Shown here one piece after another: positions 9,788-39,035 of a DNA stretch of 64,000 nucleotides (position 1 is the first letter of the stretch; the number at the start of each line of letters is the position of its first letter). The notes beneath the pieces are model-generated. The model was not told where the DNA came from. It did not search any database and saw only the letters and a list, made by a program, of their open reading frames with translations. A program made the position numbers and the translations under genes. The stretch lies in contig PBET01000024.1 in NCBI GenBank assembly GCA_002719815.1, forward strand, positions 3,393 through 67,392, written 5' to 3'. This DNA is from Methanobacteriota archaeon. GTDB lineage: Archaea; Thermoplasmatota; Poseidoniia; Poseidoniales; Poseidoniaceae.

Positions 9788-9897
9788 TTTTTCACCCGGA
9801 GGTATGCCTCCACATCAACCCAGCCGCCTTTACCCTATGAAGCCGACGCCTCGTTGAGAACGATTGCACACTTCTCGGTCCTATGTTCTATGCACGA

Positions 9898-12872: not shown

Positions 12873-13499
12873 ATGAAGCAGGCAACAGACGTCTTCAACG
12901 ATTGGGCACACCGAGGCAAAGACGAGGGTATGGAACGTGGACACAGTCCTGCTGTCAATGAAATGTTGGAGGTTGCTTTCCAACGAGTCAATCAAGGAAA
13001 TCAACCCTTTTCATTCGCTGATTTAGGATGTGGAAATGGCTGGGTTGTACGATTGGTTGGTGGGCATGAGAACTGCATGCGAGCTGATGGTTTTGATGGT
13101 GCACCGCACATGATTGAGAAGGCAAACAACATTGATTCGAAACATGGTTATCATCTTGCTCTGTTTCCTGATACACAACCTCCTCAACAATACGATTTCA
13201 TTCATTCAATGGAATTCATTTACTACCTTCATGAACCTCAACAGATGCTACAATCAATTCACGACGATTGGTTGGCCGATGGAGGTTGGGCTGTAATTGG
13301 AATCGATCATTATGCGGAACATGAGGAAAGTCTTGGTTGGCCAGAAGCCCTCGATGTACATATGTCGACATTTACAGAGCAGGAATGGATTGCAATGTGG
13401 AATGACGTTGGATTTACTGAAATTCATGCGTGGAGAGCAAACCAATCCGAAGGAAAACCAGGAACACTCGCCATCATTGGGAAGAAAAATCAGAATTGA
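12873..13499 (+). CDS. Class I SAM-dependent methyltransferase
   Basis: The SAM-binding motif I FADLGCGNGW is present. ATG at 12873 (MKQATDVF) is preferred over ATG 12819. The 3' end overlaps the convergent AddA-like gene by 26 nt. Confidence 0.65.
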   Translation: MKQATDVFNDWAHRGKDEGMERGHSPAVNEMLEVAFQRVNQGNQPFSFADLGCGNGWVVRLVGGHENCMRADGFDGAPHMIEKANNIDSKHGYHLALFPDTQPPQQYDFIHSMEFIYYLHEPQQMLQSIHDDWLADGGWAVIGIDHYAEHEESLGWPEALDVHMSTFTEQEWIAMWNDVGFTEIHAWRANQSEGKPGTLAIIGKKNQN

Positions 13500-16400
13500 T
13501 CCCCAACTCAAGGCCCTGTGGTGCACACATTCGTACATCGCCATTGAAAAATGGACACTTTTTGCAGATATCAATCGCTTCCATTGGTAAGCGCTTCGGT
13601 TCGGTAACACCGTTTGAATCTGCAGTAAGGGTTGCCATCCAATGCAGGAGATTCATCAGTTCTTCTTCTGCTTCTTTGCACATCTTATCCGGCATTTGAA
13701 CAAGACGTCCCGTCGTGGCGATCAAGAGTGCTGGTGGCCGAATATCTCGTCTCTTTTCAATGGGTTTTCGTTCTTCTTGCTCACGCAAAACCAATGAATA
13801 AAGCATCAGTTGCAAACGATGATTTCGTAGCATCTGAACCTCCGCTTGGTTTTGTGGTTCAAACGAGAGCGGTTCATTCAGCGTCTCGTACAACGGGTGC
13901 AGTTCGAGTTCTTCCTCTCGCGCACCTGTTGTTTTCAAATCAATAACCTGCAACCAAGCCTGTTGATCTTCACATCCTGCAACCACAAGATCTGCCTGCC
14001 CTTCAAAGAGAACATTGACCGCATCAATCACTGTTCGAAATGACTGGTCAAGTTCTGTGAGTGGTGTTCTCAAACGACCTTTCAGGTCGATTTGTTGATT
14101 GAAAGAAAACGACAACTCCGTTCGCAACCCTTCGATTTCATGGCCATGAATCGCTTGACCTTCGACCATTTTTCCTAAAGCTCCATTTGATAGTCGTTTG
14201 GCCAAATCAATGATTCGTTGCCTCGTTTGCTTCTGTTCATCGCTGGACAATCGATGCCACTCGGGTTGTGATTGCGTTGCATCATCGATTTCCTTATCCG
14301 ATAACAGGTGGTTTTGTTGAGCATTCAACCAAACTTGTCCTAATTCAAAGCCTGTTGTCTTCATTTCTGCTGGATTTGCAATTCCAATTTCAACGAGTCT
14401 GTGGAACATCGATCCAAAGGCAGTTGCCGATGGCCAGCCGACAGAATTAGCCGTTACATCTTCCCCATCGGACCGATCTTTAGTATCCTCCTCACTCGAT
14501 TCGAACTTCGTTTCTTGATGGAGTTTGAAAGGCTCAGATTGCCAGCCTCGTACATGCGACAACCAATAGCGTCGTCGGCAGGAATGGGCCGTATCTAAGC
14601 CATGGGCTGTCATCTTTAACGTCGGGGTTTGATAAACAACGGCTTGTTCAATCTCACTGTCATCTGTCGCTTGTTCAACGAGTTGTTCCATGTTCAGCCA
14701 GTTGGAAAGTACGGAAGTTGGTGATTGTTCGGCAAAGCAATCAGGATGGTGATACATACGCAAGCTCTGTAGCGAATCTTGCATAAATCCACTCGACGTA
14801 TACAACGCATAGGGATCAAACTTCAACGTCTGCTCGCCATATTCTGCTAAACGTTCTCCTTGAACATCGTTGGTAAGACTCCAAGGCTGTTCATCGCCTG
14901 ATGCCAATCCCATGTATCGGAAACCTTCAAGCATCAAATCGCCCATGTTGTTCCCTTTTGCATTCACCTTCATCTCAACCATTGCATCATCACTCAACAA
15001 GCAAGGAGCATTTGGCGAGCCAACGAAGATCAAGCGATCTTTCACCCTGGTAAGTGCAACATAGAATTGACGACGCAATTCAGCTTGATTTTGTGCCTTG
15101 TTCATTTGTTCAGCCAACATCCACAAGGCATCTTCAGGCTTCTCTTTCGACTTCCATGGCTGAATACGGCCTGCAATTACATCTGGTGTAATCAAGACAT
15201 TGTTCTGAGCTTCAATGCTTGAACTGCGACGTCCTGCTTCAAACAATCCTGTGACGATCACAACCGGCGCTTGGAGACCTTTTGCCCCATGAATTGTCAT
15301 GATCTGAATCGCGCCACTTGTTGGTAAAGAACGGGCTTGGGGACCTTTGTTCCCAAGTGTTCCGAACGCCTTCATCTGATCAAGGATCGAGGCGGGTTCG
15401 TGTCCTGATTCACCACCTAATTTTTGCAACATTGCGTACCATGTTTCAGCAACTTGTCGTTCAGATTCATCTGGGAATGCGATGAGGAGATCGCTGTAAT
15501 CCAAGACAGCATCAAAGATTTCGTACATGGCGCCAGAATGTACCAAACGAGCGCATGCTTCCATGAGTGGCCCTTGAGGTTCGCCATCAAAATAGTCGGA
15601 AAAGAAGTGCCAATAATTGTCCACATCCTTCGTTTGGAAAATCTCCTCAATCTGTATGGATGATGCCCCAATAATTGAGGAACGAAGGACGGAATGGGCG
15701 GCATGTCTTGACCCTGGTCGTGCGAGAAGTTCCAACATAGCCATCAACGGTTGAACGACGGGTTGCTTGAGCAACTCACCTTGTTTATCAGCCATAACCG
15801 GCAATCCACGAGCTTGGAGTCGTGCGATTAAGTCGGGAATGTGCTTTCGTGAGTGGACGAGAATCATCACATCTTCAGGCAGAATTGGCTCTTCTGGTTC
15901 TACTTCAACAAAATCTTCCGCTTCTGTTGACCATATCCGAGTTGGTGAGCCTCGAACCAAGGCATCCAATCGAGAAGCGATAAGTTCATGTTCCAAATGA
16001 CGGAGATTTGCATTTCCTGCATCGAACAAGTTGTACCCTTGTGTAAGGCCAAGTGGTAGTTCCTCGGTATCGTTTTGAGTCGGAAGAAGCCACTCGATTG
16101 TCCCTATGCGTTCCGTATCTCGTCCAGATTCTAAGGGCTGAGCAGTTGCATGGAAATCGCCTGGGAATTGGTGATGCCGATGATTAAACGTGTCATCAAA
16201 CATATTGTTGAGCGTTTGAAGTAGGCCAGGTGCTGTTCGGAAATTCGTTCTCAGTTGAATATGGCCTTCGGCTCGTTCAACGATTGTATCATCATCGATG
16301 GCGAGACCTGCGTCGTCAATTCCATAGGAAACGTAGTCGTACGGAGCTGATTTCTCATCTCGGGAATAATCAGCGGCGGAGATGAATGAACCAGATTCAC

Positions 16401-18447
16401 CACCTGCGCCGACGGGCCGAGGATCTCGGCCGTGCCCTTCTTGAGTAAAAGTCTCCATCCGTTTCTCATTAGCCTCGATCTGGTTCGCTACACGAATGGA
16501 TGCAACCATTCGACGCATAACCGTAACCTCAGCCTGACGGAATCGGTAGATGCTTTGCTTCATATCACCAACAATGCAGATGGTTGGGTCCCAGGGACCT
16601 GCTGGTTCAGGGTGTTCTTCGGAAATGCCCTCTCTTCGCCCCCAAAGTCGCGAAAGGAGACGAGCATGTTCTGGATTCGTATCCTGATACTCGTCGATAA
16701 TGAAGGCTCGATATCGTGCACGAATTTGCTTTAATAGCGCAAATCTTCGTTGAAGATCAACGTATTTCTCTTCATCACGTTGCATAATGGTCAGTGCTCT
16801 TCGAATATGTTCATCCGACCATGGCTCATCACCAAGGTCATCCAATGCCTGGACAGCCTCGGGCGGATACCAATGACGAACGATGGCTGGACAGCGAACA
16901 AGGAGTAAATCGCCGACCATGACTTGAACATCGTCAAAATCATGCGCTTCTTCTTGTGCCTTCAAGTGACGAAGTAAATCCTGACAGCCTGAATGAACTG
17001 TATACAAATCGTTCAGAACTTCAACCTGAAGGTCACTAGAAACCCTCTGCATACCAGATGGTGGTTCGGTACCCAACGAAACGCCCAGTGGATGGCGGTC
17101 GTATTTTTCATTCGCATCTCGATGGACAAAAGGCCGTACAGGATTGAGGCAGTAGGCAACTTTTGCAAGCATCAACACCAGACGCCCATCACTTGGGTCA
17201 TGAATCCGGTTTTGCAAACGAGTTGCAGCCTTGGAAGCATCTTTCATGAGTTGTTCCTTGGTTGCCTCCTCAGATTTACGCTTGAAGACTGATGACCACG
17301 TCATCAAGCCTGAAGGCCAGTCTGCTAGCGTATTTGCTCGGGGGAAGTGCCCGTCCTTGAGAATGGTTGGTGCTGGCTCCTTCAACTGTGCATGCGATGC
17401 GGCCGCTGCAACCACCTGGTACAACCACTGAAGTTGTTCTATCGGAGTTGTAGGCAGTGCTTCCCGTGCCAAATGAGCGAGTTGATTGAAACGAGTATTT
17501 GTTGTAGCAACTTGCGCTGGAGCGACAATCACAGAATGATGTTCGAGGAAAACATCAACCCATTCGTTAAGGAATGCATGTACATCTTGAACGACCGGAG
17601 TGATAAGGTGGTGACACTCCTGTAAAATCATGTCCTCAATAAGTCGGTAATCTGGAGGTGTGTCACCATCCCATGGTAAACCAGTTCGAATCGAACGTGA
17701 GCGAAGCCGTCGCTTAGATTCCTCGACAAATAGCGACGATTCTAGCAATCCTTCCAATGCCGTTTGTGCACTTGCTTGACCTCCAAGCCGGATTGCGAGA
17801 CGATTGCGGGCAGCGATGAAAGCATCAGCTGATTGAAGCATGCCCGCTTCGATTGCATCGCGAGCATTTCGTATACGCCAAGCCGCATTCAATGCTTGAC
17901 TTCTCAAAAGAGGGGCTTTTTCTTCAGGAAGTTGTTCTCGACTGACGTGGATTGCTACGAGATCGATATGCGGTGAGAGAATTTCCGACAGGAACGCATC
18001 GATGGTCGATATTGGTGATGATTCAAGCAACGACATCAGCATCGAAACATCGCCTTGGTGACGCAGACGTGGGTCATGCATCCCCATTCGGTCATCGTCT
18101 TTTACAGGATGAGCACGAAGCGATTGAATCCTTTGTCGAATTCTTGACCGCAGTTCAGATGCCGCCTTTCGAGTGAAGGTAATCGCGACGATTTCTTGTG
18201 GCAACAGTCCTTTCCATTCATTCAATGGAGTGCGATCTTTCTTTGCTGCGAGAACGTGGCCTGCACCATACTGTTCCAACCGAATTGGTGGCGGCAAAAC
18301 ATGCGTAGCTCGTTGCTCTGCTGAAAGAAGATGCTGAACATATCGTTCAGCCATAACGGTGGTTTTACCTGTTCCAGCACCAGCATCCAATGCGATGTGT
18401 TGATCGAGATTAAGACCCAGTCGCTGACTTCTGTTGAAGGAAATCAC
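13474..18447 (-). CDS. AddA/RecB-like SF1 (UvrD-family) helicase fused to a C-terminal PD-(D/E)XK nuclease
   Basis: The helicase motifs occur in order: DAGAGTGKTT, ITFTRKAASELRSRI, IIDEYQDTN, VGDMKQSIYRFRQA, LRTNFRTAP, IMTIHGAKGLQAPVV, RRQFYVALTRVKDRLIF. The nuclease motifs are GQADLVV, VIDLKTTG and QLMLYS, flanked by Cys residues (SCRRRYW ... CKKCPFFNGDVRMC). The GTG start overlaps the upstream stop (GTGA at 18444-18447). Confidence 0.85.
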   Translation of the reverse strand: MISFNRSQRLGLNLDQHIALDAGAGTGKTTVMAERYVQHLLSAEQRATHVLPPPIRLEQYGAGHVLAAKKDRTPLNEWKGLLPQEIVAITFTRKAASELRSRIRQRIQSLRAHPVKDDDRMGMHDPRLRHQGDVSMLMSLLESSPISTIDAFLSEILSPHIDLVAIHVSREQLPEEKAPLLRSQALNAAWRIRNARDAIEAGMLQSADAFIAARNRLAIRLGGQASAQTALEGLLESSLFVEESKRRLRSRSIRTGLPWDGDTPPDYRLIEDMILQECHHLITPVVQDVHAFLNEWVDVFLEHHSVIVAPAQVATTNTRFNQLAHLAREALPTTPIEQLQWLYQVVAAAASHAQLKEPAPTILKDGHFPRANTLADWPSGLMTWSSVFKRKSEEATKEQLMKDASKAATRLQNRIHDPSDGRLVLMLAKVAYCLNPVRPFVHRDANEKYDRHPLGVSLGTEPPSGMQRVSSDLQVEVLNDLYTVHSGCQDLLRHLKAQEEAHDFDDVQVMVGDLLLVRCPAIVRHWYPPEAVQALDDLGDEPWSDEHIRRALTIMQRDEEKYVDLQRRFALLKQIRARYRAFIIDEYQDTNPEHARLLSRLWGRREGISEEHPEPAGPWDPTICIVGDMKQSIYRFRQAEVTVMRRMVASIRVANQIEANEKRMETFTQEGHGRDPRPVGAGGESGSFISAADYSRDEKSAPYDYVSYGIDDAGLAIDDDTIVERAEGHIQLRTNFRTAPGLLQTLNNMFDDTFNHRHHQFPGDFHATAQPLESGRDTERIGTIEWLLPTQNDTEELPLGLTQGYNLFDAGNANLRHLEHELIASRLDALVRGSPTRIWSTEAEDFVEVEPEEPILPEDVMILVHSRKHIPDLIARLQARGLPVMADKQGELLKQPVVQPLMAMLELLARPGSRHAAHSVLRSSIIGASSIQIEEIFQTKDVDNYWHFFSDYFDGEPQGPLMEACARLVHSGAMYEIFDAVLDYSDLLIAFPDESERQVAETWYAMLQKLGGESGHEPASILDQMKAFGTLGNKGPQARSLPTSGAIQIMTIHGAKGLQAPVVIVTGLFEAGRRSSSIEAQNNVLITPDVIAGRIQPWKSKEKPEDALWMLAEQMNKAQNQAELRRQFYVALTRVKDRLIFVGSPNAPCLLSDDAMVEMKVNAKGNNMGDLMLEGFRYMGLASGDEQPWSLTNDVQGERLAEYGEQTLKFDPYALYTSSGFMQDSLQSLRMYHHPDCFAEQSPTSVLSNWLNMEQLVEQATDDSEIEQAVVYQTPTLKMTAHGLDTAHSCRRRYWLSHVRGWQSEPFKLHQETKFESSEEDTKDRSDGEDVTANSVGWPSATAFGSMFHRLVEIGIANPAEMKTTGFELGQVWLNAQQNHLLSDKEIDDATQSQPEWHRLSSDEQKQTRQRIIDLAKRLSNGALGKMVEGQAIHGHEIEGLRTELSFSFNQQIDLKGRLRTPLTELDQSFRTVIDAVNVLFEGQADLVVAGCEDQQAWLQVIDLKTTGAREEELELHPLYETLNEPLSFEPQNQAEVQMLRNHRLQLMLYSLVLREQEERKPIEKRRDIRPPALLIATTGRLVQMPDKMCKEAEEELMNLLHWMATLTADSNGVTEPKRLPMEAIDICKKCPFFNGDVRMCAPQGLELGINSDFSSQ

Positions 18448-21400
18448 TTTGTTTCACCTCCAATGGATGCAGAAGAGCACGCACTTGCGAGTGAACAATA
18501 CTTGCAGTGATCTCCTGGTGCAGGATGATTCCAGCCGAGTTCACTTGCATCCTGTGCCCGGATTGCGGCAGTAATTCTTGAACTCATCCACGCCCGGAAA
18601 CTGTTACTCTCCGGTGTTGTTCCTTCAGTTGGTATACGGAAATGATTTCCAGAGTAAAACGTTCGAGTTCCGATGGTTCGGCTTTCCTCAAGAAAAGCAA
18701 AACTCGGATCGAGTTCAAGGAGATGTTCCGTATCATCGCCCACTTCTGAGATACCAACGCCAATGACGCGATCGCCTGGATGTGCTAATTCCCAAGCACG
18801 AGCATAGAGTGCTAATTGAATCTCCTTGAAGAGGCCCGCGACATGTCGAATGCCATCTTCACCAGGTTTTGGTCCTTCGATGGTTTTGAGGTCTCGAATG
18901 ATGATGAAGCGCTTCGCAGGAGGTCCACTTCCATCAAAGAAAAGTGGCATCCCTTCTGCGCTCTCATCATAGAGCCCACGCTCGGTTAGTCGTTCAAGGA
19001 GCGATTCATCGAGAACAAGGTGATCAACGCGATCAATTCGCCCACGTAACTTGATGCATGAGGTTTCAAATTGATCATCAAACCCTTCGATTTCTACACT
19101 CAACTCCGTTCCATGTTGCAACGCCCATTCACTGGCAATTGGTGCTGCTGAGGTCAGGTTGAGATCTGCTAAAAGTAGACGTCCGAGTCGCCCTCCAATC
19201 GGAAGCGTTCCGTTGCCTTCAAGCCAATCGTTCCAATCTTCAGGCGAGCAGCCAATCAAATCATTGCAGCGATGAACGGAAACTGCATTTGTTCTCGATA
19301 ACCAGGGAGCGATTTCAGACAAATGCCAGAGCAAACTTTCCCATATTTCTTGGTTTGATAGTGAAGTTCCTTGATGCATTGGCGTACCTTCGGCCAGTGG
19401 CGTCCCTCCTACTTCAATTCCAAGAAGTGTCATGAGATGTTCCTCAATGGCATGAACCAACGTTCCTTTTGTGAGTGGCGCAATGTCTTCAGAGGGCTCG
19501 GGAGTGTTGTCCGTGGCATCGAGTGTCTGTTCAGACCATGCTTGTCGGGGGCAAGTCAGCCAAGGTGTTAATCGGCTTGTTGACCATGTCTTTGATTCCG
19601 TTTCGATCGGTTGACTGGAAAGAATTTCGTTCAGGCTTGGTGAACCATACGTAGGCGGAGGAAGCGGACGAGGGTCGAGTGAAGGCCCCCTCGAATTGCC
19701 ATTCTTCTTGTATCCGAGATGCGGATAGGATGCTGAGGTTCGACCACCACTCACCTCGGCTTGAGAGACCGTGGGTTCGATGACAAGGCCCGTTGTTGTG
19801 AGCAAGCTCTCCCGTATCTCCCATGGCAGAATGCTTCCATTTGCAAGTGGCTTGAATTTTGGTTGGCGACGATAGCGATCGAGATGCACATCGCGTTCAA
19901 ATCGATTCGCTATGGTATTCGCTGACTGAATCGTTCCACTCGGAGTCCGCAACGCTTTCAATTCAAGACCAGTCTGTTGTTGCAGATCTCGTTGCATGTT
20001 CTCTGCTCGTTCAAGTTCCACTTCACCACCGTTCACAGATAATGAAGAAGTTCGATATGTCAGCCAATTTCCTGTTTCTCGAGTCACAATTGACCATCCA
20101 GCACCATCAGAAACTTCTTCCTGCAGGAACGCTGGAATGGCCGCAAGATTCCGTAAATCACCTTGCAGTTCAACGCCTGAAAGGTACTCGACAACCGGTG
20201 TCGAATTACCCGCAGATTCATCATGTTCGGTATCGAAGAGGATCACTTGTTGGCTTGAATTTAGCACAGATTTGAAGAGATGACGCGCCTGACGAACGGG
20301 TAAGTCTCCATCATTCAAGCCTAATTCGACTCGAACAGAATCGTCAATCCAAGGCACTCGCTCAGGCTTCATCGACCATGACTCAGCATCAATTCCAACG
20401 AAGAGAGTGAGGTCCGATGCTACCCCAAACGCTTGCTTTGGTGTACAGATATGTACATCGAAATGACGAACTCGATTCATAGGTAGTTTGGTTTGATCGG
20501 CTGCTAACCGACAAAAATCAATGAATGGAAGACTCGACTGATATTGGAGCAAACCATCAACGGATCGGACCCATGATTGCACGGCACCTACGGAGGCATC
20601 GTAATGCCGTGTACGTTCAAACAACGCCTCCCAGTCACATGCATGTAAAATTGTGCTGAGTACGTCTCGTGGCGTTTTACTTGGCTCGGGCAAGGGTAGA
20701 GAAATGTTTGATGACGCGCCAACGAATGGATTCGCAAGGAAGTTTTTCTCGGTTTCATCGAGTAACGCAGTCCATGATGTTGCAAGGCATTGCAACCACC
20801 ACTGCGTCTCCTCAATCGCTCGCAATTCTTCCTCACGACGATAGGCTTCAACAGCATATGGTTTTGCAACAGCTAAAGAGCCAAGCCACCGTTGGAGCGC
20901 TCCTTTTCCGCCAAGAACGTGGAAACTGCGGCCGATGTTTTCAATCACGTCCAAGTGTGGCCTTGGCCGCCAATCCTTCTTTTCTGGATGGGTCAAATCG
21001 GAAAACAATTTGCCAATAATCGGGAACGCCTTTGACTGGGCGATATCGAACAGTTTAGCTGTTGACCATGCATCTTGGCCATTGGGAATTGACAGAAATC
21101 GAAGTATTGCTTGTATAGCAGAGGTACTTCCAACTGAATCTGCTTGAGTATCGCATGTAATTCCAATGCGCTGCAGACGGCGAATCCATTCCTTGTGGCG
21201 GCCCTTGTCGGCATCGATGAGAAGAATACGTCCTTGTTCATGCTTGTTGAAATGATTGATGACTGAAATTGCGGCATCTGGAATCTGCGAGGCTCGGTCG
21301 AAACTCAGTAAGTGGATTCCTTCTGTCGCGTAATCAGCGTTACCGGATGCTGGAGGCAGAACGGTATGACGTGGGACCCATTCTGGCAGTTGGTCATCGC

Positions 21401-22148
21401 GTTCCAAAAGCGGTAGTTCATCATCGATGTATGCTCCATGAAATCCGAGACGGAATGAGCCTGTGACACAAAGATGATGGATTGGGCTTCGCACTGATAA
21501 GGCCTTGAGAAACTGCTTCTCATCTTCATGAAAGTCAGGCGGATGGTTGAGAAGGAGGATACCACGAATTGCTCCAAGCGTGTAAGGCGTTGGAACATTC
21601 AAATCGGCGAGTGCTGAACAAATTCGGGCGATGACGTGGTGCTCATGCAGAAGATTTTCGTTTTCAAACGATGAAAGAATCCGATCTGCTTCAAATGCGC
21701 CGGGATCTTCTTCCCACGTCGAAAGGATACCATGTTTTGTTGCATACGCATGGAGAGAAAGCAAACGCTCTGATTTTGAAAGTGTCCATGGCCTGGTCAC
21801 GTCGGGATGGAGGCGAGGAAAACGATGATCTTGCGCTGCAGAGGCAAACTTTTCGTGAACTTGTACAAGACCAGTCGATGTTCTTGGCACAAGAACAGGT
21901 AGTCGGAGATCGATCGTTAAGGACTTCAAGAGTCGTTGAAGCGTTGTGTGTCTGCTTGAATCAACAGAGCCCGCTTTCTGAAGAATGGCCTGGATAGACG
22001 AGGACCGAGTGACTTCATTCGGATAGATGACCAATAAATCGTCCCGTCCTGTTGCAATTTCATCCACAACCCAGGACGGGACGGTCGTATCGAAAGGGCA
22101 TGACTCTACTGTGATGTTCTCAGCCATATCCTCCCCACCCATCTTCAT
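18444..22148 (-). CDS. AddB-like subunit: long helicase-like scaffold without Walker A plus a C-terminal RecB-type nuclease with Cys4 (Fe-S staple-type) signature
   Basis: I found no GxGKT motif. The C-terminal motifs are GRIDRVD, IIIRDLKT and QLALYARAW, bracketed by LTCPRQAW and HCKYCSLASAC (C-x2-C-x5-C). The gene is translationally coupled to the AddA-like gene. Confidence 0.6.
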   Translation of the reverse strand: MKMGGEDMAENITVESCPFDTTVPSWVVDEIATGRDDLLVIYPNEVTRSSSIQAILQKAGSVDSSRHTTLQRLLKSLTIDLRLPVLVPRTSTGLVQVHEKFASAAQDHRFPRLHPDVTRPWTLSKSERLLSLHAYATKHGILSTWEEDPGAFEADRILSSFENENLLHEHHVIARICSALADLNVPTPYTLGAIRGILLLNHPPDFHEDEKQFLKALSVRSPIHHLCVTGSFRLGFHGAYIDDELPLLERDDQLPEWVPRHTVLPPASGNADYATEGIHLLSFDRASQIPDAAISVINHFNKHEQGRILLIDADKGRHKEWIRRLQRIGITCDTQADSVGSTSAIQAILRFLSIPNGQDAWSTAKLFDIAQSKAFPIIGKLFSDLTHPEKKDWRPRPHLDVIENIGRSFHVLGGKGALQRWLGSLAVAKPYAVEAYRREEELRAIEETQWWLQCLATSWTALLDETEKNFLANPFVGASSNISLPLPEPSKTPRDVLSTILHACDWEALFERTRHYDASVGAVQSWVRSVDGLLQYQSSLPFIDFCRLAADQTKLPMNRVRHFDVHICTPKQAFGVASDLTLFVGIDAESWSMKPERVPWIDDSVRVELGLNDGDLPVRQARHLFKSVLNSSQQVILFDTEHDESAGNSTPVVEYLSGVELQGDLRNLAAIPAFLQEEVSDGAGWSIVTRETGNWLTYRTSSLSVNGGEVELERAENMQRDLQQQTGLELKALRTPSGTIQSANTIANRFERDVHLDRYRRQPKFKPLANGSILPWEIRESLLTTTGLVIEPTVSQAEVSGGRTSASYPHLGYKKNGNSRGPSLDPRPLPPPTYGSPSLNEILSSQPIETESKTWSTSRLTPWLTCPRQAWSEQTLDATDNTPEPSEDIAPLTKGTLVHAIEEHLMTLLGIEVGGTPLAEGTPMHQGTSLSNQEIWESLLWHLSEIAPWLSRTNAVSVHRCNDLIGCSPEDWNDWLEGNGTLPIGGRLGRLLLADLNLTSAAPIASEWALQHGTELSVEIEGFDDQFETSCIKLRGRIDRVDHLVLDESLLERLTERGLYDESAEGMPLFFDGSGPPAKRFIIIRDLKTIEGPKPGEDGIRHVAGLFKEIQLALYARAWELAHPGDRVIGVGISEVGDDTEHLLELDPSFAFLEESRTIGTRTFYSGNHFRIPTEGTTPESNSFRAWMSSRITAAIRAQDASELGWNHPAPGDHCKYCSLASACSSASIGGETK

Positions 22149-22421: not shown

Positions 22422-23495
22422 ATGACGAAAAAGTGTGAAGAATGTGGCAGTTATGACTTGAAAGCGGACAACATCCGAGGCGAGGTGGTTTGCAACGATT
22501 GTGGACTTGTCATCGAGGATCAAGCCTCGGCGACCCAAAACGACAATGCAGGAACAATGTGGGGCGAAAATGCATCCAACACTCCGACCAAAGATGAAGC
22601 CAAGATTAAGACTGGCTCGAAGGGTAATGCGCTTGGTTCCTACATCGGTAAGCCAAATGAAGCGAAGGGCAAGTGGAAAATCCTACGACACCTGCACGCT
22701 CGAGATGTCAAGGACCTGCACCCAATGGCGCAAGCTACGATGGATGCTGCAAAGGAGTTGGCTGGCAAGGACAACGCCATGAAGGCGAAGAAAGTCATCA
22801 CCCTAGCGACCGTTCCACTCGATGATGAGAAAGCGAAGGCGTTGCGAGAAATCGCTGATGAGGAGGAAATCATCCTTCCAAAGAACTCTGTTTGCCGAAA
22901 GAAAACCCGAGGGGGAAGCACCCAGAACAACGAGAAGTTGCTTGCGCTGGGTTGTCTGCGAGCACATCAGGAGCGAACTGGCAAAATCAACATCGATTGG
23001 CCCCAGATGGTTGAAGGCACTGGTTTGACCATGGCTCAGGTTGTTGATGCTGCAAAAGTCATCATGAAGTACCTTAATCTATGCGAGAAAGCGCATCTTA
23101 TCGAAGAGCGAGCAGACCGAAGAACTGTTCATCTCGAGTTGCGAAACACCGAAATCGAGAACACTACGCTTCGACTGAAGCAACTTCTCGAAGATGTTGA
23201 TGAATCCGTGAAGACGCAAATCATGGACGATTACAAGCAACGACTCTTCACCTTGGGTGAGCCGACATTAGGCGGTTCACCGTTCTCAAGCGAGAACATT
23301 GAGGCCAAGGTCCTCTGCGCAATTCTCTTCCAAATCTCATGCGAGTCCTTTGGTGTTGAACAAGGACGGCTCGAGAACATCGCTCATGCGATTGGTCGAT
23401 GTCGAAACACCATCAAGAACCGCCTCAAGTCCCTTCGAAAGAAGGTGGCGTCTGGTGAGCTGGTTGACTTTGGTGTCTTGCAGAAGAAGCACTGA
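22422..23495 (+). CDS. Divergent TFB-like protein (TFIIB-type N-terminal zinc ribbon)
   Basis: The N-terminus KKCEECGSYDLKADNIRGEVVCNDCGLVIED is a TFIIB-type ribbon. The remaining roughly 320 aa are helical and basic. I cannot align them confidently to the B-reader (GPEWRAF) or the two cyclin repeats. Confidence 0.5.
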   Translation: MTKKCEECGSYDLKADNIRGEVVCNDCGLVIEDQASATQNDNAGTMWGENASNTPTKDEAKIKTGSKGNALGSYIGKPNEAKGKWKILRHLHARDVKDLHPMAQATMDAAKELAGKDNAMKAKKVITLATVPLDDEKAKALREIADEEEIILPKNSVCRKKTRGGSTQNNEKLLALGCLRAHQERTGKINIDWPQMVEGTGLTMAQVVDAAKVIMKYLNLCEKAHLIEERADRRTVHLELRNTEIENTTLRLKQLLEDVDESVKTQIMDDYKQRLFTLGEPTLGGSPFSSENIEAKVLCAILFQISCESFGVEQGRLENIAHAIGRCRNTIKNRLKSLRKKVASGELVDFGVLQKKH

Positions 23496-32966: not shown

Positions 32967-35081
32967 CTAGACAATTTGCAAGGTATCGTAACCCGTTGGG
33001 CGCATAAGACGACCGTTTTGGTTGAGTTTATCGATGACTTCCTCGGCTTTTTCTCTTGGAATATCGAGGCGTTCTGCTTCATTGAGGACGTCAATCAGTT
33101 GGGCGTAGCCATCACCATTGGCGGACAGACGTTCAACAATGTCGAGAATGGTTCGTTCAGCATGGCGAGCCTTTCCTTTTTGATTGGAAGCGATCGCTGT
33201 TTCATCGAAATTCTCACCCATCAGATCGTATCTCCATGTCTTTGTCAGACGTACAGCTCGCTCAGCATCTTCGATGGTTGCCGTTTCCGACAGTCGAATG
33301 CGGGCACTCGCTTCGGCCAATCGTGCGAGAGCTTCCAATGCACGCGCAGTGATGGCGACTGAGTCCTGATATTCACCGGACTGTTTACGTGTTGAAACAT
33401 AGTAATCGATGATGTGCTTTTTGGCTTCCTCATCCAAATTTGGATGGACTGTTCGCTTCGCGTATGCAACGTACTTGCGGATAAATTCTCGATGAAGGTG
33501 CCCATCCGTATGACTTGGTTTGGTCATGACTGAGCTCAGTTTACGTGGGTCGGGTCTTGATCCCTCATTAACCAATAATTCACTTGTACCGGAGAGTCTG
33601 TTGTCAACAATGTGCCCTGCAATCTTCGCGTCCTTGTCTTCTGAAGGCTCATCTGTCAGCAACCAAATGACATCAAAACGAGAGATAAGTGGTGGAGCGA
33701 GGTTGATTTGCCCGGTAAAGGGAACTTCTGAAACAGGTTGGAAACGGCCTGCCTTTGGGTTCGCAGCGGCCAATACGGCGCAACGTGTGCGAAGGCTTGC
33801 ATTGATTCCAGCTTTTGAAATTGAAATTGTTTGTTGTTCCATCGCTTCGTGCATACTGGATCGATCGGCTTGATTCATTTTGTCGAATTCGTCGATTGCA
33901 GCCAATCCCTGATCGGCGAGAACGAGGGCGCCCGCTTCCAATGTCCAGCGTCCGTCAGCGCTCGCATCTTGAACTGCAGCTGCAGTCAAACCAGCGGCTG
34001 ATGCGGACATACCGGAGGTAAATCGACCGCGAGGAGAAATGTTGCCCATGTAGGCAAGAAGTTGCGACTTTGCAACACCAGGATCACCCATCAAAAGGAT
34101 GTGAATATCTCCACGGTTTCGTGTTCCATCTGGATTGAGTCGCGCAACACCCCCAAACAATTGCAACATGAGCGTTTCTTTGATCTTGTCCATTCCAAAA
34201 ATGGAAGGAGCAATCGACTCAGCGATTCGCTTGTAAACATCTTGATCGGCTGCAAATGTTTTGATTTCTGCTTCTTCCTCATCGGAGACAACTATTTCCT
34301 CCAATGCAAGGTTTTGACGTTCAAGCGATTGAACGCGCATGAAGATATCAAACACAGGGGTGTCCTTTCCAAACTTGCGTTGCGAACGAATGAACAAAAC
34401 GCCGTTGGCTTTGACTCGATCGCCTGGATTGACCTTTCCAGTGAGGTCATGTTCTGCTACACATGAAATGCGTTCAGGCTGGACGCCTCCGCGAACCTGT
34501 TCAGGTAGTTCCTGCAGTTCAATAAACTGTGAATTCGTTAGTGTTGAACGTTCTTGCAATAATTGGAAGCGTGTTTGGCGATTGGTCAAGCCACATCCAC
34601 CATCGATTTGTGAACACTCCATTGGCGTGATGAGTTCCTGTTCGTTGGGTTGCTGAATGATGGTCAAATGTTCGCACGCGACACATTTGAACGTTGCAGA
34701 ATACATTCGAGGACGAACACCAGAGATTTTTGTTACCACGGCATCAATGGAAATCATCAAACCGATATCATCCGAGCGAAGTTGGGAAACGGTGCGAACC
34801 TGGTCGCTTGGAAGGTGAACAATACGCACCCATGGATTGATTGTACCATGGCCCACATCAGCGAGTAACTCTCGAAGGGCTCTGTTTGATGCATCATCAT
34901 GCAAATCTGGTTGTTCAAGAATACTTTGAGCAAAAGTTGGATCAAATCCTTCGATGGTCCGATATGAAACCTCAAGACTCTGGACATCCGGCCAAAGTTG
35001 AGCGATGTTGTGGACATCCTCGGTAAAATGTGCATGCAGAAGTGTCGACCATCGCGCTGTCAAATCAAAGTCTTGAATCAT
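32967..35081 (-). CDS. mcm: MCM replicative helicase
   Basis: A zinc motif (CVACEH...C...GGC), Walker A (LLMGDPGVAKSQLL), Walker B (IDEFDKM) and the arginine finger (SRFDVIWLL) are present, followed by a C-terminal wHTH. ATG 35081 (MIQDFDLTARW) is preferred over the track start at 35246. Confidence 0.9.
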   Translation of the reverse strand: MIQDFDLTARWSTLLHAHFTEDVHNIAQLWPDVQSLEVSYRTIEGFDPTFAQSILEQPDLHDDASNRALRELLADVGHGTINPWVRIVHLPSDQVRTVSQLRSDDIGLMISIDAVVTKISGVRPRMYSATFKCVACEHLTIIQQPNEQELITPMECSQIDGGCGLTNRQTRFQLLQERSTLTNSQFIELQELPEQVRGGVQPERISCVAEHDLTGKVNPGDRVKANGVLFIRSQRKFGKDTPVFDIFMRVQSLERQNLALEEIVVSDEEEAEIKTFAADQDVYKRIAESIAPSIFGMDKIKETLMLQLFGGVARLNPDGTRNRGDIHILLMGDPGVAKSQLLAYMGNISPRGRFTSGMSASAAGLTAAAVQDASADGRWTLEAGALVLADQGLAAIDEFDKMNQADRSSMHEAMEQQTISISKAGINASLRTRCAVLAAANPKAGRFQPVSEVPFTGQINLAPPLISRFDVIWLLTDEPSEDKDAKIAGHIVDNRLSGTSELLVNEGSRPDPRKLSSVMTKPSHTDGHLHREFIRKYVAYAKRTVHPNLDEEAKKHIIDYYVSTRKQSGEYQDSVAITARALEALARLAEASARIRLSETATIEDAERAVRLTKTWRYDLMGENFDETAIASNQKGKARHAERTILDIVERLSANGDGYAQLIDVLNEAERLDIPREKAEEVIDKLNQNGRLMRPTGYDTLQIV

Positions 35082-35158
35082 GTTCGCACCACACTGAGGA
35101 ATTAGATATGGACGGCTACCGTTCTTAATGGTTCCATTGCAATTTATGCGCCCCTTCA

Positions 35159-35173
35159 TTTCCACTGGAAAAC
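35159..35173 (-). promoter_or_regulatory. ORB-like dyad (candidate Orc1/Cdc6 recognition box) with adjacent G-string
   Basis: The minus strand reads GTTTTCCAGTGGAAATGAAGGGGCG. TTTCCA-N-TGGAAA is a perfect 13-bp palindrome at 35159-35171. GGGG follows 5 nt after the dyad on the minus strand. Confidence 0.4.
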
Positions 35174-35270
35174 GCCATACATTCATACATGCTTTCTCAT
35201 CGAAAACATACAGAAAGTGGAACGGCGCCAAACTCAATAGATTCATATCAAATCAACACGACGGTTTGCC

Positions 35271-35783
35271 ATGATTATCTTCGCGCATGGACTGGAAGGG
35301 TCTCCGAACGGAAGTAAGATTCGTGCCTTACGCAATGCAGGTTTTGATGTTGTAGCGCCTGATTTTCAAGGGATGAATCTCGCTGAACGTGTGGACTTGC
35401 TGGAAGAAATTTGTTTGAAATATGCTTCGAAACGGCCTGTACTTGCTGGATCAAGCTATGGAGGATTGACTGCTGCAATCATCGCAATGAAGATGCCAGG
35501 TGCATTTCGCGGACTTCTCTTGTGCGCTCCTGCACTTCATTTGATTGAGCCTCCTGTGGATGAGAACACTGTTCTTGTTGCTCCAAATGGATTGAAGACG
35601 GTCATCATTCATGGCCTTGAAGACGATATTGTCCCCATTTCGTGCAGTATTGACTACGCAGCTCGCTCGGGGAATGATGTCGTTGCATTTCATCAGGTCA
35701 ATGATGGCCATCGCCTTGCTGAATCGCATCAAGAGATTATCGACGCTGCCCAGTTGTTGAGTGGCGAGACGATTGATTCATGA
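35271..35783 (+). CDS. Small alpha/beta-fold hydrolase (esterase-like)
   Basis: Motifs IIFAHGLEGSP, the nucleophile elbow GSSYGG, HGLEDDIVP and a C-terminal DGHRL are present. Confidence 0.6.
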   Translation: MIIFAHGLEGSPNGSKIRALRNAGFDVVAPDFQGMNLAERVDLLEEICLKYASKRPVLAGSSYGGLTAAIIAMKMPGAFRGLLLCAPALHLIEPPVDENTVLVAPNGLKTVIIHGLEDDIVPISCSIDYAARSGNDVVAFHQVNDGHRLAESHQEIIDAAQLLSGETIDS

Positions 35784-36941: not shown

Positions 36942-38291
36942 ATGGGCGAGTCATTTTCAGGACAGGATGTTCCTGATGATTGGCCTGGCCATGTATGGTG
37001 TGAAGGACGTACATTTGTTCACTTGAAAACAAGTCAAGAGCGTCCAACCCATATGCCTCGAGGGCCTGCTGCAAAATCCGGAACGGGTTTCATGAATCCT
37101 GCAATGGCACCAGCGCGTACACGTTCGGTTCTCTTGTTGCAAGATGCGCTCGAACATGGTTGGATCAATGGAGATCGCCCAGTTCGGGCTTTGGATGCAC
37201 TCTGTGCTACAGGAATTCGCGTTCGACGATGGAGAAACGAAATCAAATCGGATTTGCAAGACTACTTGCACATAACTGCCAATGATCTTGACCGCAAAGC
37301 ACTCGATTGGGCTTTGAATTCAACCAATTCTGATCATGAAATACCAATTCCTCAATCGATTGATGATGAACAAGTTCAACCACACTTCATCGAAAAGAAT
37401 GGAATCAAGTTTCAAAATCAAGATGCGCGTTTAGCGATGATTCAAGGGTCGTTTCAATGGATTGACATCGATCCTTTCGGTTCACCAGTGACGTTCATCG
37501 ATGCTGCATTGCAGGCGCTCGGGCGAGTAGGTGTTCTCGAAGTGACGGCAACCGATACTGCTGCATTAACTGGTTCTTCTGCGACTTCAGGTATGCGTCG
37601 GTACGGTCACAAAGGCATCGTTGATTTGTATGCTCATGATGATGCTATTCGGGTTCTTCTTGGAACCATAGCAACACGTGCTGCACAACTTGACCGCGCT
37701 ATCGAGCCTATCCTTGCATTGTTCGATGGCCATCATGTTCGAGTTTCCGTACTCGTTCGGAAGAGCAAGCAGGGAGCAGATAAGACTCGAGAACAAATGG
37801 GCTGGAGAGTTCGTTGTGAAGACATTCCATACAAATTCACGAAACAACCGACAATCGAAGAAATGCCTCAATCGAGTGGCCCAATGTGGATTGGACCGTT
37901 ATGGAATGGTGATATCTGTTCTCGACTTACCGAAGAAAACGCGGTCAAGACATGTCTTGCTCAACCTTCTGATTTAGAACGAGGAATCCCAATCGGACTC
38001 GAATGGAGCGAGTCTGACCAACTGTATGCAGAACGTGAGATTCGACGTTCAGTGCGTCATATTGCGCAAGCAGCACCTTTGCTATCATCGGAACACCTGT
38101 TGCTCGCATTCGATCAACTACCTCGATTCGCTGGCGTGGGTTCATTACCATCGATGGAGCGACTTATCGATACTCTCAATGAAGCTGGTCATTTGTCAGC
38201 AAGAGTTCCCGATCTTCGGCCGTTTATCGCAACGCATGCACCATTCGAAACGGTTCTTGAGACCATACGAACTATTCTTTCAGCCGAATGA
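36942..38291 (+). CDS. trm1: tRNA (guanine26-N2)-dimethyltransferase Trm1
   Basis: Motifs FMNPAMAPARTRSV, ALCATGIRVRR, IDIDPFGSPVTFIDAAL and LEVTATDTAALTG are present. ATG 36942 is preferred; the track start at 36900 is TTG. Confidence 0.85.
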   Translation: MGESFSGQDVPDDWPGHVWCEGRTFVHLKTSQERPTHMPRGPAAKSGTGFMNPAMAPARTRSVLLLQDALEHGWINGDRPVRALDALCATGIRVRRWRNEIKSDLQDYLHITANDLDRKALDWALNSTNSDHEIPIPQSIDDEQVQPHFIEKNGIKFQNQDARLAMIQGSFQWIDIDPFGSPVTFIDAALQALGRVGVLEVTATDTAALTGSSATSGMRRYGHKGIVDLYAHDDAIRVLLGTIATRAAQLDRAIEPILALFDGHHVRVSVLVRKSKQGADKTREQMGWRVRCEDIPYKFTKQPTIEEMPQSSGPMWIGPLWNGDICSRLTEENAVKTCLAQPSDLERGIPIGLEWSESDQLYAEREIRRSVRHIAQAAPLLSSEHLLLAFDQLPRFAGVGSLPSMERLIDTLNEAGHLSARVPDLRPFIATHAPFETVLETIRTILSAE

Positions 38292-39035
38292 GGGATCATT
38301 GATTGCATCGTCATCATCGGGCGAAGGCAGCAACGGTGTAGCGCTCTCAATGATTTCTTGAACAGATTGCTCAATACTTCGAGCATTTTCAAGCATCGCC
38401 GATAATGGAATTTCTTTCCCGGTCATTTCTGTAATGGCTTCGATAGCAACAGCTGCAGCACGAACATCAGGATACATTGGACTCGCTTCAGAAAGCAAAG
38501 CAGTGATATCGAGATTGAGCCGATCACCTTCACTCAAGAGGAATCCAGTAATTCCAGATACAATACCACGTTGAATCGTCTGTAAATCAAGCGATTTCAA
38601 TCGATCTCTCGCTACAGCATTCGCCCCAACTGCGAACAAGCCCTCACCTTGAATTTGTTTTTCGGGCTTGAGAATTCCATCGATGATGATCAATTGATCA
38701 AAGCCTCCTACTCTGAACCACTCAAGAACCGTTGAACCAAAGGCAATATCTTGTTCCTTCTCAAATTGAATTTCAGCAGTAAAAACACCAATTCCATCGC
38801 CTTGGTAAACACGAACTGGGTGTCGAGGCACTTCATTTTGAATCAAAGCGACAGCTGGAAAGTTCTCATCCATAACCGTCCCTAGTTGTGTAAGATTGAG
38901 TGATTCAATGATGTGAGAAGCGGCAATAACGCCGACCATTCCTGCCGTAGTAAAGCCACAGATTGCGACGCCACCTGTGGTCGGGTCAACACCTGAACGA
39001 AGAACAAGGTCATACGTTCCGAACTGTTGTTTCAT
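38280..39035 (-). CDS. PAC2-family proteasome assembly chaperone homologue (PbaA/PbaB-like)
   Basis: The segment ICGFTTAGMVGVIAASHIIESL is typical of the PAC2 family N-terminus. The acidic C-terminal tail ends DPSFG. Confidence 0.65.
   Translation of the reverse strand: MKQQFGTYDLVLRSGVDPTTGGVAICGFTTAGMVGVIAASHIIESLNLTQLGTVMDENFPAVALIQNEVPRHPVRVYQGDGIGVFTAEIQFEKEQDIAFGSTVLEWFRVGGFDQLIIIDGILKPEKQIQGEGLFAVGANAVARDRLKSLDLQTIQRGIVSGITGFLLSEGDRLNLDITALLSEASPMYPDVRAAAVAIEAITEMTGKEIPLSAMLENARSIEQSVQEIIESATPLLPSPDDDDAINDPSFG

What the first reader, a model, noticed from the sequence alone, without database searches (positions are those of the whole stretch)
35082..35270. Exact TTCCAGTGGAAA dyad plus G-string (archaeal ORB-like) in the mcm upstream region
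If mcm starts at ATG 35081, the conserved N-terminus begins there and the upstream ORF extension is Cys/Trp/Phe-rich and implausible. That leaves a 189-bp non-coding region. Its minus strand reads GTTTTCCAGTGGAAATGAAGGGGCG (35150-35174). As I recall, TTCCAGTGGAAA(C/T) is the conserved core of archaeal origin recognition boxes bound by Orc1/Cdc6, and full ORBs carry a downstream G-string. A second, oppositely oriented half-site (AAGTGGAAC, 35215-35223) and a GTTCCAT site (35131-35137) lie nearby. The A and B sites flank a roughly 40-bp spacer that is about 62% AT. This may be a replication origin or an Orc1-dependent control site for mcm.
Basis: partly seen in the sequence, partly recalled or inferred. 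Interest (0 to 1): 0.65.

Follow-up and report, generated by a model that had tools for sequence, protein, structure and literature searches.

The report
Orc1 recognition box fixed upstream of mcm
A textbook binding site for the archaeal replication initiator Orc1/Cdc6 sits just upstream of the promoter of the replicative helicase gene mcm in every Marine Group II archaeon examined, and it looks like a control site for mcm rather than the replication origin, which appears to lie elsewhere in these genomes.

Summary
It is the only one in 64 kb, against 0.02 expected by chance. The contig belongs to Ca. Poseidoniales. mcm starts at ATG 35081.

The ORB lies on the mcm strand 67-95 nt upstream of the mcm start in all 58 Poseidoniales loci with upstream DNA, and in none of 23 loci from other archaea. 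It keeps a fixed distance to a BRE/TATA-like box. A degenerate second core lies 52 bp further upstream, and the upstream neighbour gene varies.

The site lacks an inverted full ORB partner and an AT-rich unwinding region.

Poseidoniales, including the window's family, carry a canonical origin-like locus elsewhere. There, two inverted ORBs flank 130-146 bp of 60-77% AT DNA, next to a beta-CASP nuclease gene.

Best reading (0.6): an Orc1/Cdc6 operator that couples mcm transcription to the initiator. A secondary origin is not excluded (0.15). Binding and any effect on transcription are inferred, not shown. This is a new variant of a known element.

The parts
35149..35173 (-). Full ORB: GTTTTCCAGTGGAAATGAAGGGGCG. 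Dyad core TTCCAGTGGAAA at 35159-35170, G-string GGGG at 35151-35154, with the G-string pointing towards mcm.
   Evidence: Read directly. It is unique in the window, with 0.02 expected. It is present in the same slot and strand in all 58 Poseidoniales loci: the core is exact in 37 of the 57 relatives, has one mismatch in 16 and two in 4. Information content is 1.3-2.1 bits per core position and 2.1 bits per G of the G-string.
35212..35223 (-). Its centre lies 52 bp upstream of the ORB centre. It has no G-string.
   Evidence: The best match to TTCCANTGGAA falls at -53 relative to the ORB in 30 of 56 loci, and at -55 to -51 in 48 of 56. Mismatches are 0-1 in MGIIb-type loci and 2-4 in MGIIa (4 here), against a mean of 4.3 in control windows. 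The position is weakly conserved in the anchored profile.
35193..35195 (-). Short A-tract in the spacer, weakly conserved at about -26 relative to the ORB.
   Evidence: The anchored profile gives 0.7-0.8 bits at -27/-26. Its function is unknown.
35120..35135 (-). BRE/TATA-like core promoter of mcm: GGAACC then ATTAAGAACG. The clade consensus is g.aat..TTATA at +34 to +45 from the ORB.
   Evidence: The distance from the ORB is fixed across 58 unique loci, with 0.5-0.9 bits at +41 to +45. Calling it BRE/TATA is an inference from archaeal promoter consensus (my knowledge). It was not mapped.
35114..35119 (-). Conserved GTAGCC (clade consensus gT.G.C at +50 to +55 from the ORB), between the TATA-like box and the expected transcription start. 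Role unknown.
   Evidence: Up to 1.2 bits in the anchored profile.
35088..35091 (-). Shine-Dalgarno-like GGTG 7 nt upstream of the mcm ATG.
   Evidence: GGTG or GGAGGTG recurs just upstream of the ATG in relatives. The role is inferred.
32967..35081 (-). mcm coding sequence (704 aa plus stop). The true start is ATG 35081, not 35246.
   Evidence: Pfam finds MCM P-loop, OB and lid domains. Homologues are 704-710 aa, and conservation starts at MIQDFDL.
35271..35783 (+). Divergent neighbour, a small alpha/beta hydrolase. It is not part of the conserved unit.
   Evidence: Pfam. The upstream neighbour belongs to at least three unrelated families across relatives while the ORB stays linked to mcm.

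Best explanation
The element is a genuine Orc1/Cdc6 recognition box recruited as an upstream operator of the mcm promoter.

Proposed mechanism:
- One Orc1/Cdc6 monomer binds the full ORB. Its winged-helix domain sits on the dyad and its AAA+ domain on the G-string side facing the promoter. By analogy with solved Orc1-ORB complexes, it bends and underwinds the DNA.
- A second, weaker site 52 bp (five helical turns) upstream may bind another monomer on the same face of the helix.
- The ORB ends about 15 bp upstream of the BRE/TATA-like box, at a distance invariant across the order. Initiator occupancy is therefore expected to modulate TBP/TFB recruitment and hence mcm transcription. Because the site lies upstream of BRE/TATA rather than over it, activation is more likely than occlusion.
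- This would tie helicase supply to the amount or nucleotide state of the initiator.

Shown: the motif, its uniqueness, its conservation across all Poseidoniales loci examined, its fixed strand and phase, its linkage to mcm rather than to the neighbour, and the existence of a separate canonical origin-like locus.

Inferred: Orc1 binding, which paralogue binds, the promoter assignment, and the sign of regulation.
For: - The motif matches the ORB exactly and is unique in 64 kb.
- The same pattern in metagenomes lies beside orc1 in about 30 loci from other archaea, so it is the canonical initiator site.
- It is present on the mcm strand 67-95 nt before the ATG in all 58 Poseidoniales loci with upstream DNA, down to 25% identity over the first 120 MCM residues (about 42% over the full length).
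- No other full ORB occurs in 958 kb of those loci.
- None is found upstream of mcm in 23 non-Poseidoniales loci.
- Spacing to the TTATA box and to a gT.G.C element is constant, and the distal core is fixed at -53.
- The upstream neighbour varies among at least three families.
- The spacer is not AT-rich across the clade.
- A canonical inverted-ORB/DUE locus exists elsewhere in both families.
- Literature: a single full ORB binds Cdc6 with high affinity (PMC1904270). Orc1 binds as a polar monomer and deforms DNA (PMC3089459, PMC12141716). Sulfolobus Orc1 proteins have many non-origin ChIP-seq sites and their deletion alters transcript profiles (PMC3607249). Orc1-2 is a global transcription regulator (PMC9738581).
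Against: - There is no binding, transcription-start or expression data.
- The Poseidoniales orc1 genes could not be located with the searches available, so I could not ask whether orc1 or other replication genes carry the same operator. The bacterial-type ligase gene in the window does not.
- At the predicted origin, the right-hand ORB also sits at a fixed 46-54 nt from the beta-CASP start. A fixed phase with a promoter is therefore not exclusive to a purely regulatory site.
- In Pyrococcus, ChIP-chip found essentially no Cdc6 binding outside oriC (PMC1904270).
- The BRE/TATA assignment rests on consensus only.
Confidence: 0.6

Rival explanations
1. It is a replication origin, either a second or dormant oriC or a minimal helicase-loading site. 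Orc1 at the ORB, with or without the distal core, would load MCM onto the about 40-bp spacer next to the helicase's own gene.
For: - It is a full, high-quality ORB, with a second core-like element 52 bp away.
- In this window the spacer is 63% AT against 53% for the locus.
- The flanking genes diverge.
- Multi-origin chromosomes and dormant origins are known in archaea (PMC4010727, PMC4595724).
- The clade's predicted main origin is also not next to orc1, so absence of orc1 is not an argument here.
Against: - No inverted full ORB partner is present. Where the distal site is well preserved (MGIIb) it is mostly a direct repeat.
- In S. islandicus oriC1 both inverted ORBs are individually required, and they flank a region of about 130 bp (PMC12141716).
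- Across 56 loci the spacer is only about 38 bp and is not AT-enriched (0.548 versus 0.523). The beta-CASP locus has 130-146 bp at 60-77% AT.
- The cumulative GC skew shows no extremum at 35.1 kb.
- Third-position skew shows no signal under any model, so this test is uninformative.
- Most genes to the right of the site (14 of 22) are on the strand head-on to a fork leaving 35.1 kb.
Confidence: 0.15
2. It is an initiator titration or architectural site, analogous to E. coli datA. A high-affinity ORB away from the origin would buffer free Orc1 or organise the chromosome, and its position at mcm would be incidental to transcription.
For: - It is a very well conserved, near-consensus ORB outside the predicted origin.
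- The core is exact in 37 of the 57 relatives.
Against: A pure sink would not need a constant strand or a constant distance to the TATA-like box and the mcm start, nor strict linkage to one gene through changes of neighbour over the whole order. One site gives little titration capacity.
Confidence: 0.12
3. The box is bound not by an Orc1/Cdc6 protein but by another winged-helix regulator that recognises a similar dyad, so the resemblance to the ORB is convergent.
For: Palindromic TTCC..GGAA cores are simple. No binding data exist.
Against: - The G-string, its spacing and the trailing T(G) are conserved together with the dyad. The consensus is indistinguishable from the ORBs of the clade's own inverted-pair locus and from orc1-adjacent ORBs of other archaea.
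- The full pattern is absent from the remaining 958 kb examined.
Confidence: 0.08

Closest known systems
ORB elements of oriC1-type archaeal origins (Saccharolobus/Sulfolobus oriC1, Pyrococcus oriC), bound by Orc1-1/Cdc6
   Same: The dyad core (TTCC...GGAA, here TTCCAGTGGAAA) and the downstream G-string are the same. The implied polarity of a monomeric Orc1 is the same. The motif is the one found beside orc1 genes in other archaea (PMC1904270, PMC12141716).
   Different: It is a single full copy with no inverted partner, no AT-rich unwinding element and no adjacent initiator gene. It sits at a fixed distance from a BRE/TATA-like box of mcm.
Predicted Poseidoniales oriC
   Same: The ORB consensus is the same. 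The G-string faces the flanking gene, and the ORB lies close upstream of that gene's start.
   Different: That locus has two full inverted ORBs and a 130-146 bp spacer at 60-77% AT. The mcm site has one full ORB and a 38-bp spacer of ordinary composition.
Non-origin roles of archaeal Orc1/Cdc6: non-origin ChIP-seq sites in S. islandicus, and Orc1-2 as the DNA-damage regulator
   Same: An Orc1-family protein acts at promoters as a transcription factor (PMC3607249, PMC9738581).
   Different: As I recall, Orc1-2 recognises a different short promoter motif rather than the canonical ORB. Here the canonical origin-type ORB itself is used, at one specific replication gene, and it is conserved over a whole order.
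Bacterial DnaA boxes in promoters (dnaA autoregulation, nrdAB) and the datA titration locus
   Same: The logic is the same: the initiator's origin-type recognition sequence is reused outside the origin to couple gene expression or initiator availability to replication (established knowledge; comparison also drawn in PMC3607249 and PMC1904270).
   Different: The protein family and domain of life differ. The target here is the replicative helicase gene.
Pyrococcus/Thermococcus second ORB cluster inside the dp1 (PolD small subunit) gene
   Same: ORBs are associated with a replication gene outside the unwinding region, conserved within an order (PMC1904270).
   Different: That cluster lies within the 5-kb oriC-cdc6-dp1 region and inside a coding sequence. 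The mcm ORB is intergenic, promoter-proximal, and at least 29 kb from any beta-CASP/origin-type locus, since none is present in the window.

Membership tests
Archaeal origin recognition box (ORB, Orc1/Cdc6 site) | Dyad core with invariant TTCC and GAA blocks (TTCCAGTGGAAA-type) | tested here: met
   There is an exact TTCCAGTGGAAA at 35159-35170 on the minus strand. The core motifs are as described for Pyrococcus ORB and mini-ORB (PMC1904270).
Archaeal origin recognition box (ORB, Orc1/Cdc6 site) | G-string a few bases 3' of the core, which distinguishes a full ORB from a mini-ORB | tested here: met
   GGGG lies 4 nt after the core. These positions are invariant in relatives at 2.1 bits each.
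Archaeal origin recognition box (ORB, Orc1/Cdc6 site) | The same motif occurs at initiator-adjacent origins | tested here: met
   The pattern scan of metagenome contigs returned about 30 of 120 loci with orc1 adjacent, often with several ORBs.
Archaeal origin recognition box (ORB, Orc1/Cdc6 site) | Specific binding by Orc1/Cdc6 | not testable with these tools
   This needs EMSA, footprinting or ChIP with Poseidoniales Orc1/Cdc6.
oriC1-type archaeal replication origin | At least two full ORBs in inverted orientation, both required | tested here: not met
   Only one full ORB is present. The distal element lacks a G-string, is degenerate here (4 mismatches), and is mostly direct in MGIIb. The requirement comes from PMC12141716.
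oriC1-type archaeal replication origin | AT-rich duplex unwinding element between the ORBs (about 100 bp or more) | tested here: not met
   The spacer is about 38 bp. Mean AT over 56 loci is 0.548 against 0.523 for the loci, and it is enriched in only 34 of 56. The beta-CASP locus has 130-146 bp at 0.60-0.77 AT.
oriC1-type archaeal replication origin | Adjacent initiator gene (orc1/cdc6 or whiP) | tested here: not met
   No Orc1-like gene is in the window (Pfam; tblastn) or within 10 kb of mcm in the Poseidoniales loci. Caveat: the clade's better origin candidate also lacks one within 10 kb.
oriC1-type archaeal replication origin | Strand-composition switch or marker-frequency peak | tested here: inconclusive
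   The cumulative GC skew has no extremum at 35.1 kb. Flank skews are dominated by coding strand. Third-position skew fits no replication model, with R2 at most 0.075. Coverage data are not available.
Initiator-binding operator in a promoter (DnaA-box-type or Orc1-as-regulator logic) | Fixed position and orientation relative to the core promoter of the target gene | tested here: met
   The strand is always the same. TTATA lies at +41 to +45 and gT.G.C at +50 to +55 from the ORB in 58 unique loci. The ORB lies 67-95 nt from the ATG.
Initiator-binding operator in a promoter (DnaA-box-type or Orc1-as-regulator logic) | Linkage to the target gene is independent of the neighbouring gene | tested here: met
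   The upstream neighbour is an esterase-type hydrolase in 25 loci, a small alpha/beta hydrolase in 10, a PCC-domain protein in 5, and others elsewhere. The ORB is kept throughout.
Initiator-binding operator in a promoter (DnaA-box-type or Orc1-as-regulator logic) | Occupancy changes transcription of the target | not testable with these tools
   This needs in vitro transcription, reporter assays or metatranscriptomics.

The most novel reading that the evidence does not exclude
The mcm-proximal ORB, together with its distal core, is a minimal second helicase-loading site or origin placed at the helicase's own gene. With coupled transcription and translation, newly made MCM would be captured and loaded in cis by Orc1. 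This would be an origin architecture with one full ORB and no classical unwinding element.
Probability: 0.1. Interest if true: 0.8.

Novelty: new variant of a known kind. Interest (0 to 1): 0.55.

Why it matters
Poseidoniales (Marine Group II) are among the most abundant planktonic archaea and have no cultured representative, so their replication control can only be read from sequence.

A canonical initiator box locked to the promoter of the replicative helicase gene across the whole order would be a clear, testable case of an archaeal initiator acting as a gene-specific regulator through its origin-type site. It would link origin licensing to helicase supply, much as DnaA boxes do for bacterial replication genes.

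The by-product may be practically useful. The conserved inverted-ORB/AT-rich locus next to a beta-CASP nuclease gene is a concrete oriC prediction for this clade. It is not next to orc1, which departs from the usual archaeal replicator-initiator pairing (PMC4010727). It also gives an anchor for coverage-based growth-rate estimates in ocean metagenomes.

Tried and rejected
- **Longer MCM N-terminus (start 35246).** Rejected. Homologues are 704-710 aa. The upstream 'extension' is read in different frames in different lineages, yet it is the same DNA.
- **orc1 near the site.** A typed Orc1 consensus and the Natronoplasma Orc1 were used in tblastn against the window and all loci. The only hit beside mcm was in Natronoplasma (L072), with none in Poseidoniales.
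- **GC skew.**
  - The window profile shows no extremum at 35.1 kb.
  - Left/right flank skews at mcm and at the predicted origin are dominated by coding-strand composition.
  - Third-codon-position skew regressed on three replication models shows no signal.
  - All of these were dropped as evidence either way.
- **Same-contig linkage of mcm and the beta-CASP origin on very long contigs.** Contig lengths in the two hit lists do not coincide, so the distance between the two loci is unknown.
- **RNA element in the intergenic region.** No Rfam match at E up to 1.
- **Other ORB-like cores in the window (1279, 11510, 31938, 40093 and others).** All lie without a G-string, the ones checked against the ORF list fall inside ORFs, and they were treated as chance.
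It is not conserved beyond 95-99% relatives and lies in the BRE-like slot.
- **Classifying the remaining 75 ORB-bearing metagenome contigs.** Only one more (L190) could be tied to the Poseidoniales origin flank.

Full report
**What is in the window**

The window is a contig of Candidatus Poseidoniales (Marine Group II archaea). The best MCM homologues are annotated as Poseidoniales or Poseidoniaceae. The closest genome loci are Poseidoniaceae MAGs.

- The ORF 32967-35246 (-) is MCM by Pfam.
- Most homologues are 704-710 aa, and conservation starts at MIQDFDL, so the true start is ATG 35081.
- The next gene, a small alpha/beta hydrolase, starts divergently at 35271. This leaves a 189-bp intergenic region.

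On the minus strand, 35149-35173 reads GTTTTCCAGTGGAAATGAAGGGGCG.

- The exact 12-mer dyad is unique in the window.
- The full pattern TCCAGTGGAAAYNNNGGGG, even with two mismatches, occurs once against 0.02 expected.
- Other near-matches to the core carry no G-string, and those checked lie inside ORFs.
- No Rfam family matches the region.

**Is it an ORB?**

The invariant TTCC and GAA blocks and the 13-mer TTCCAGTGGAACT are described for Pyrococcus ORBs and mini-ORBs. A single full ORB binds Cdc6 with high affinity there (PMC1904270).

I scanned public metagenome contigs for the exact pattern. Of the 120 loci returned:
- about 30 have an orc1/cdc6 gene directly beside the match, often with several ORBs;
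- four are mcm-upstream sites of Poseidoniales type (L116, L120, L163, L196);
- eleven, plus one weaker case (L190), flank a beta-CASP metallo-beta-lactamase nuclease gene.

The motif is therefore the canonical initiator site.

**Conservation upstream of mcm**

The first hint came from the protein alignment. Homologues whose gene call was extended upstream translate the extension as FPVEMKG, SPVEIKGWD or SPVEMRG in one frame and as SSGNEGV or SSGKQGV in another. This is the same ORB DNA read in two frames.

I then fetched 80 genome loci with an MCM profile.

- All 57 Poseidoniales-type loci with at least 130 nt of upstream DNA, plus the window, carry the ORB on the mcm strand, with its G-string towards mcm.
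- The core ends 67-95 nt before the ATG.
- Among the 57 relatives, the core is exact in 37, has one mismatch in 16 and two in 4.
- This holds across Poseidoniaceae- and Thalassarchaeaceae-labelled MAGs, down to 25% identity over the first 120 MCM residues (about 42% over the full length).
- In 958 kb of these loci there is no other full ORB.
- None of 23 loci from other Thermoplasmatota, Methanoperedens and similar groups has one upstream of mcm.
- The upstream neighbour changes between lineages: an esterase-type hydrolase in 25 loci, the small hydrolase seen here in 10, a PCC-domain protein in 5, and others. The box is therefore tied to mcm.

**Anatomy relative to the promoter**

I anchored 58 unique upstream regions on the ORB without gaps.

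- Information content is 1.3-2.1 bits over the core and 2.1 bits at each G of the G-string.
- The following T has 1.0 bit.
- At constant distance there is g.aat..TTATA at +34 to +45 and gT.G.C at +50 to +55.

I read the first of these as BRE/TATA, by comparison with archaeal promoter consensus (my knowledge, not mapped). In the window these elements are GGAACC/ATTAAGAACG (35120-35135) and GTAGCC (35114-35119). A GGTG Shine-Dalgarno-like element follows at 35088-35091.

Upstream, the best match to the palindrome TTCCANTGGAA sits at -53 in 30 of 56 loci and at -55 to -51 in 48 of 56.
- It has 0-1 mismatches in MGIIb-type loci and 2-4 in MGIIa.
- Control windows average 4.3 mismatches.

The two centres are 52 bp apart, which is five helical turns.

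**Is it an origin?**

Several features of an oriC1-type origin are missing.

- In S. islandicus oriC1, two inverted ORBs flank an AT-rich region. The ORB3-DUE-ORB2 region spans about 130 bp, and each ORB is individually required (PMC12141716). Here there is one full ORB.
- The distal element has no G-string and, where well preserved, is mostly a direct repeat.
- The spacer is about 38 bp. Across 56 loci it is not AT-enriched: 0.548 against 0.523, higher in 34 of 56. The 63% AT in this window is therefore not a conserved feature.
- No orc1 gene is in the window or within 10 kb of mcm in any Poseidoniales locus. The only locus with orc1 beside mcm was Natronoplasma.

Composition tests did not help.
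- The cumulative GC skew has no extremum at 35.1 kb.
- Flank skews follow coding strand.
- Third-position skew fits no replication model, with R2 at most 0.075.

**A better origin candidate in the same clade**

The beta-CASP-linked ORB hits share one architecture across 14 lineages examined in detail.

- Two full ORBs are in inverted orientation with their G-strings pointing outwards.
- They are separated by 130-146 bp of 60-77% AT DNA, in loci that are 40-62% AT overall.
- The locus lies between a small ferredoxin gene on one strand and the beta-CASP gene on the other.
- The right ORB core ends 46-54 nt before the beta-CASP ATG, or 35 nt in L213.

The beta-CASP proteins fall into two clades.
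- One is named Marine Group II MED-G33/G34, Thalassarchaeum or Thalassarchaeaceae.
- The other includes proteins named Poseidoniales and Poseidoniaceae, among them P0436 on JBMYVA010000042.1 (L217).

The window's family therefore has this locus too. Its ORB consensus, (a/t)TTCCA(G/C/A)TGGAAA(T/C)aaaGGGGTg, is the same as that of the mcm box. No Orc1-like gene lies within 10 kb of it. This is a prediction from architecture, not a mapped origin.

**Mechanism proposed**

Orc1 binds an ORB as a polar monomer. Its winged-helix domain sits on the conserved core and the AAA+ initiator-specific motif on the adjacent DNA, and it bends and underwinds the duplex (PMC3089459, PMC12141716).

At mcm, this geometry places the AAA+ side towards a BRE/TATA-like box about 15 bp away, at a distance that has not drifted across the order. 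I infer that initiator occupancy modulates assembly of the transcription pre-initiation complex on mcm. Because the site is upstream of BRE/TATA rather than over it, I favour activation, by the positional rule known for archaeal regulators (my knowledge). The distal core could add cooperative binding on the same face of the helix.

There is precedent. Sulfolobus Orc1 proteins have multiple non-origin ChIP-seq sites, and their deletion changes transcript profiles (PMC3607249). Orc1-2 is a global DNA-damage regulator (PMC9738581).

Which Poseidoniales paralogue would bind is unknown. A phylogenomic survey places an MGII sequence in the Orc1-2 cluster (PMC3914693). I could not retrieve the genes.

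**Rivals**

- *A secondary or dormant origin, or a minimal MCM-loading site.* This cannot be excluded without coverage or biochemical data. It is weakened by the missing partner ORB and unwinding element.
- *A titration or architectural site.* This does not explain the strict strand and phase relative to the promoter.
- *A different protein recognising a look-alike box.* This is unlikely, because dyad, spacing, G-string and trailing T are conserved together and match the clade's own origin ORBs.
- *Caveat for my preferred reading.* The right-hand origin ORB also keeps a fixed distance to the beta-CASP start. Proximity to a promoter is therefore a general property of ORBs in this clade.

**Novelty**

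The ORB itself is a known element. A conserved, promoter-phased, non-origin ORB at the helicase gene, restricted to one order, is a new variant of its use.

I found no paper in the searchable library that combines Poseidoniales with origins, ORBs or Orc1.

The predicted origin is not next to the initiator gene. This departs from the usual statement that characterised archaeal origins pair with an adjacent initiator gene (PMC4010727).

**Verdict**

- Observation: confirmed.
- Interpretation as an ORB: supported.
- 'Origin': not supported.
- 'Orc1-dependent control site for mcm': the best-supported but untested reading.

Noticed in passing
L201-L220, L126, L135, L181 and others (e.g. L219:9680-10001; L217:193-540): A predicted Poseidoniales oriC. 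Two inverted full ORBs with outward G-strings flank 130-146 bp of 60-77% AT DNA, between a small ferredoxin gene and a beta-CASP/MBL nuclease gene. It is conserved in both families, has no orc1 within 10 kb, and was not found in the searchable literature.
   Followed up: partly
L084, L095, L102, L113, L122, L142, L144, L184 and about 12 more metagenome loci: In many non-Poseidoniales ORB loci from diverse metagenomes, the gene divergent from orc1 across the ORB cluster is a conserved 130-180 aa protein. Two of four scanned members gave winged-helix Pfam hits (Penicillinase_R/MarR/TrmB-like). It may be an origin-associated DNA-binding factor.
   Followed up: partly
window 35114-35119 (-) and the equivalent +50 to +55 position in relatives: A conserved GT.G.C element lies between the TATA-like box and the expected mcm transcription start, with up to 1.2 bits. 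It is not explained by the ORB or by the TATA box.
   Followed up: no
L164:1-1002: A short contig has two direct ORBs upstream of an orc1 5' end. The divergent gene is a PCC-domain gene distantly related (about 31-36%) to the PCC gene that is divergent from mcm in MGIIb-type loci (L044-L056, L163).
   Followed up: partly
window 58829-60949 (-): An NAD-dependent (bacterial-type) DNA ligase with adenylation, OB, HhH and BRCT domains is encoded on this archaeal contig. It has no ORB upstream.
   Followed up: no
window 13474-22148 (-): Two adjacent giant ORFs of 1657 and 1234 aa. They were not scanned for domains.
   Followed up: no
window 22422-23495 (+): A 357-aa protein in which Pfam recognises only an N-terminal TFIIB-type zinc ribbon. 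It may be a divergent TFB-like factor.
   Followed up: no
window 38280-39035 (-) and 53980-54777 (+): Two PAC2-family (proteasome assembly chaperone-like) genes lie within 16 kb of each other.
   Followed up: no
L215:~9880-9905 and L103 (right-hand origin ORB): In two MGIIb origin loci the right-hand ORB has a C-run (CTACCCCCC, GAGGCCCCC) where the G-string should be. The left ORB is canonical.
   Followed up: no
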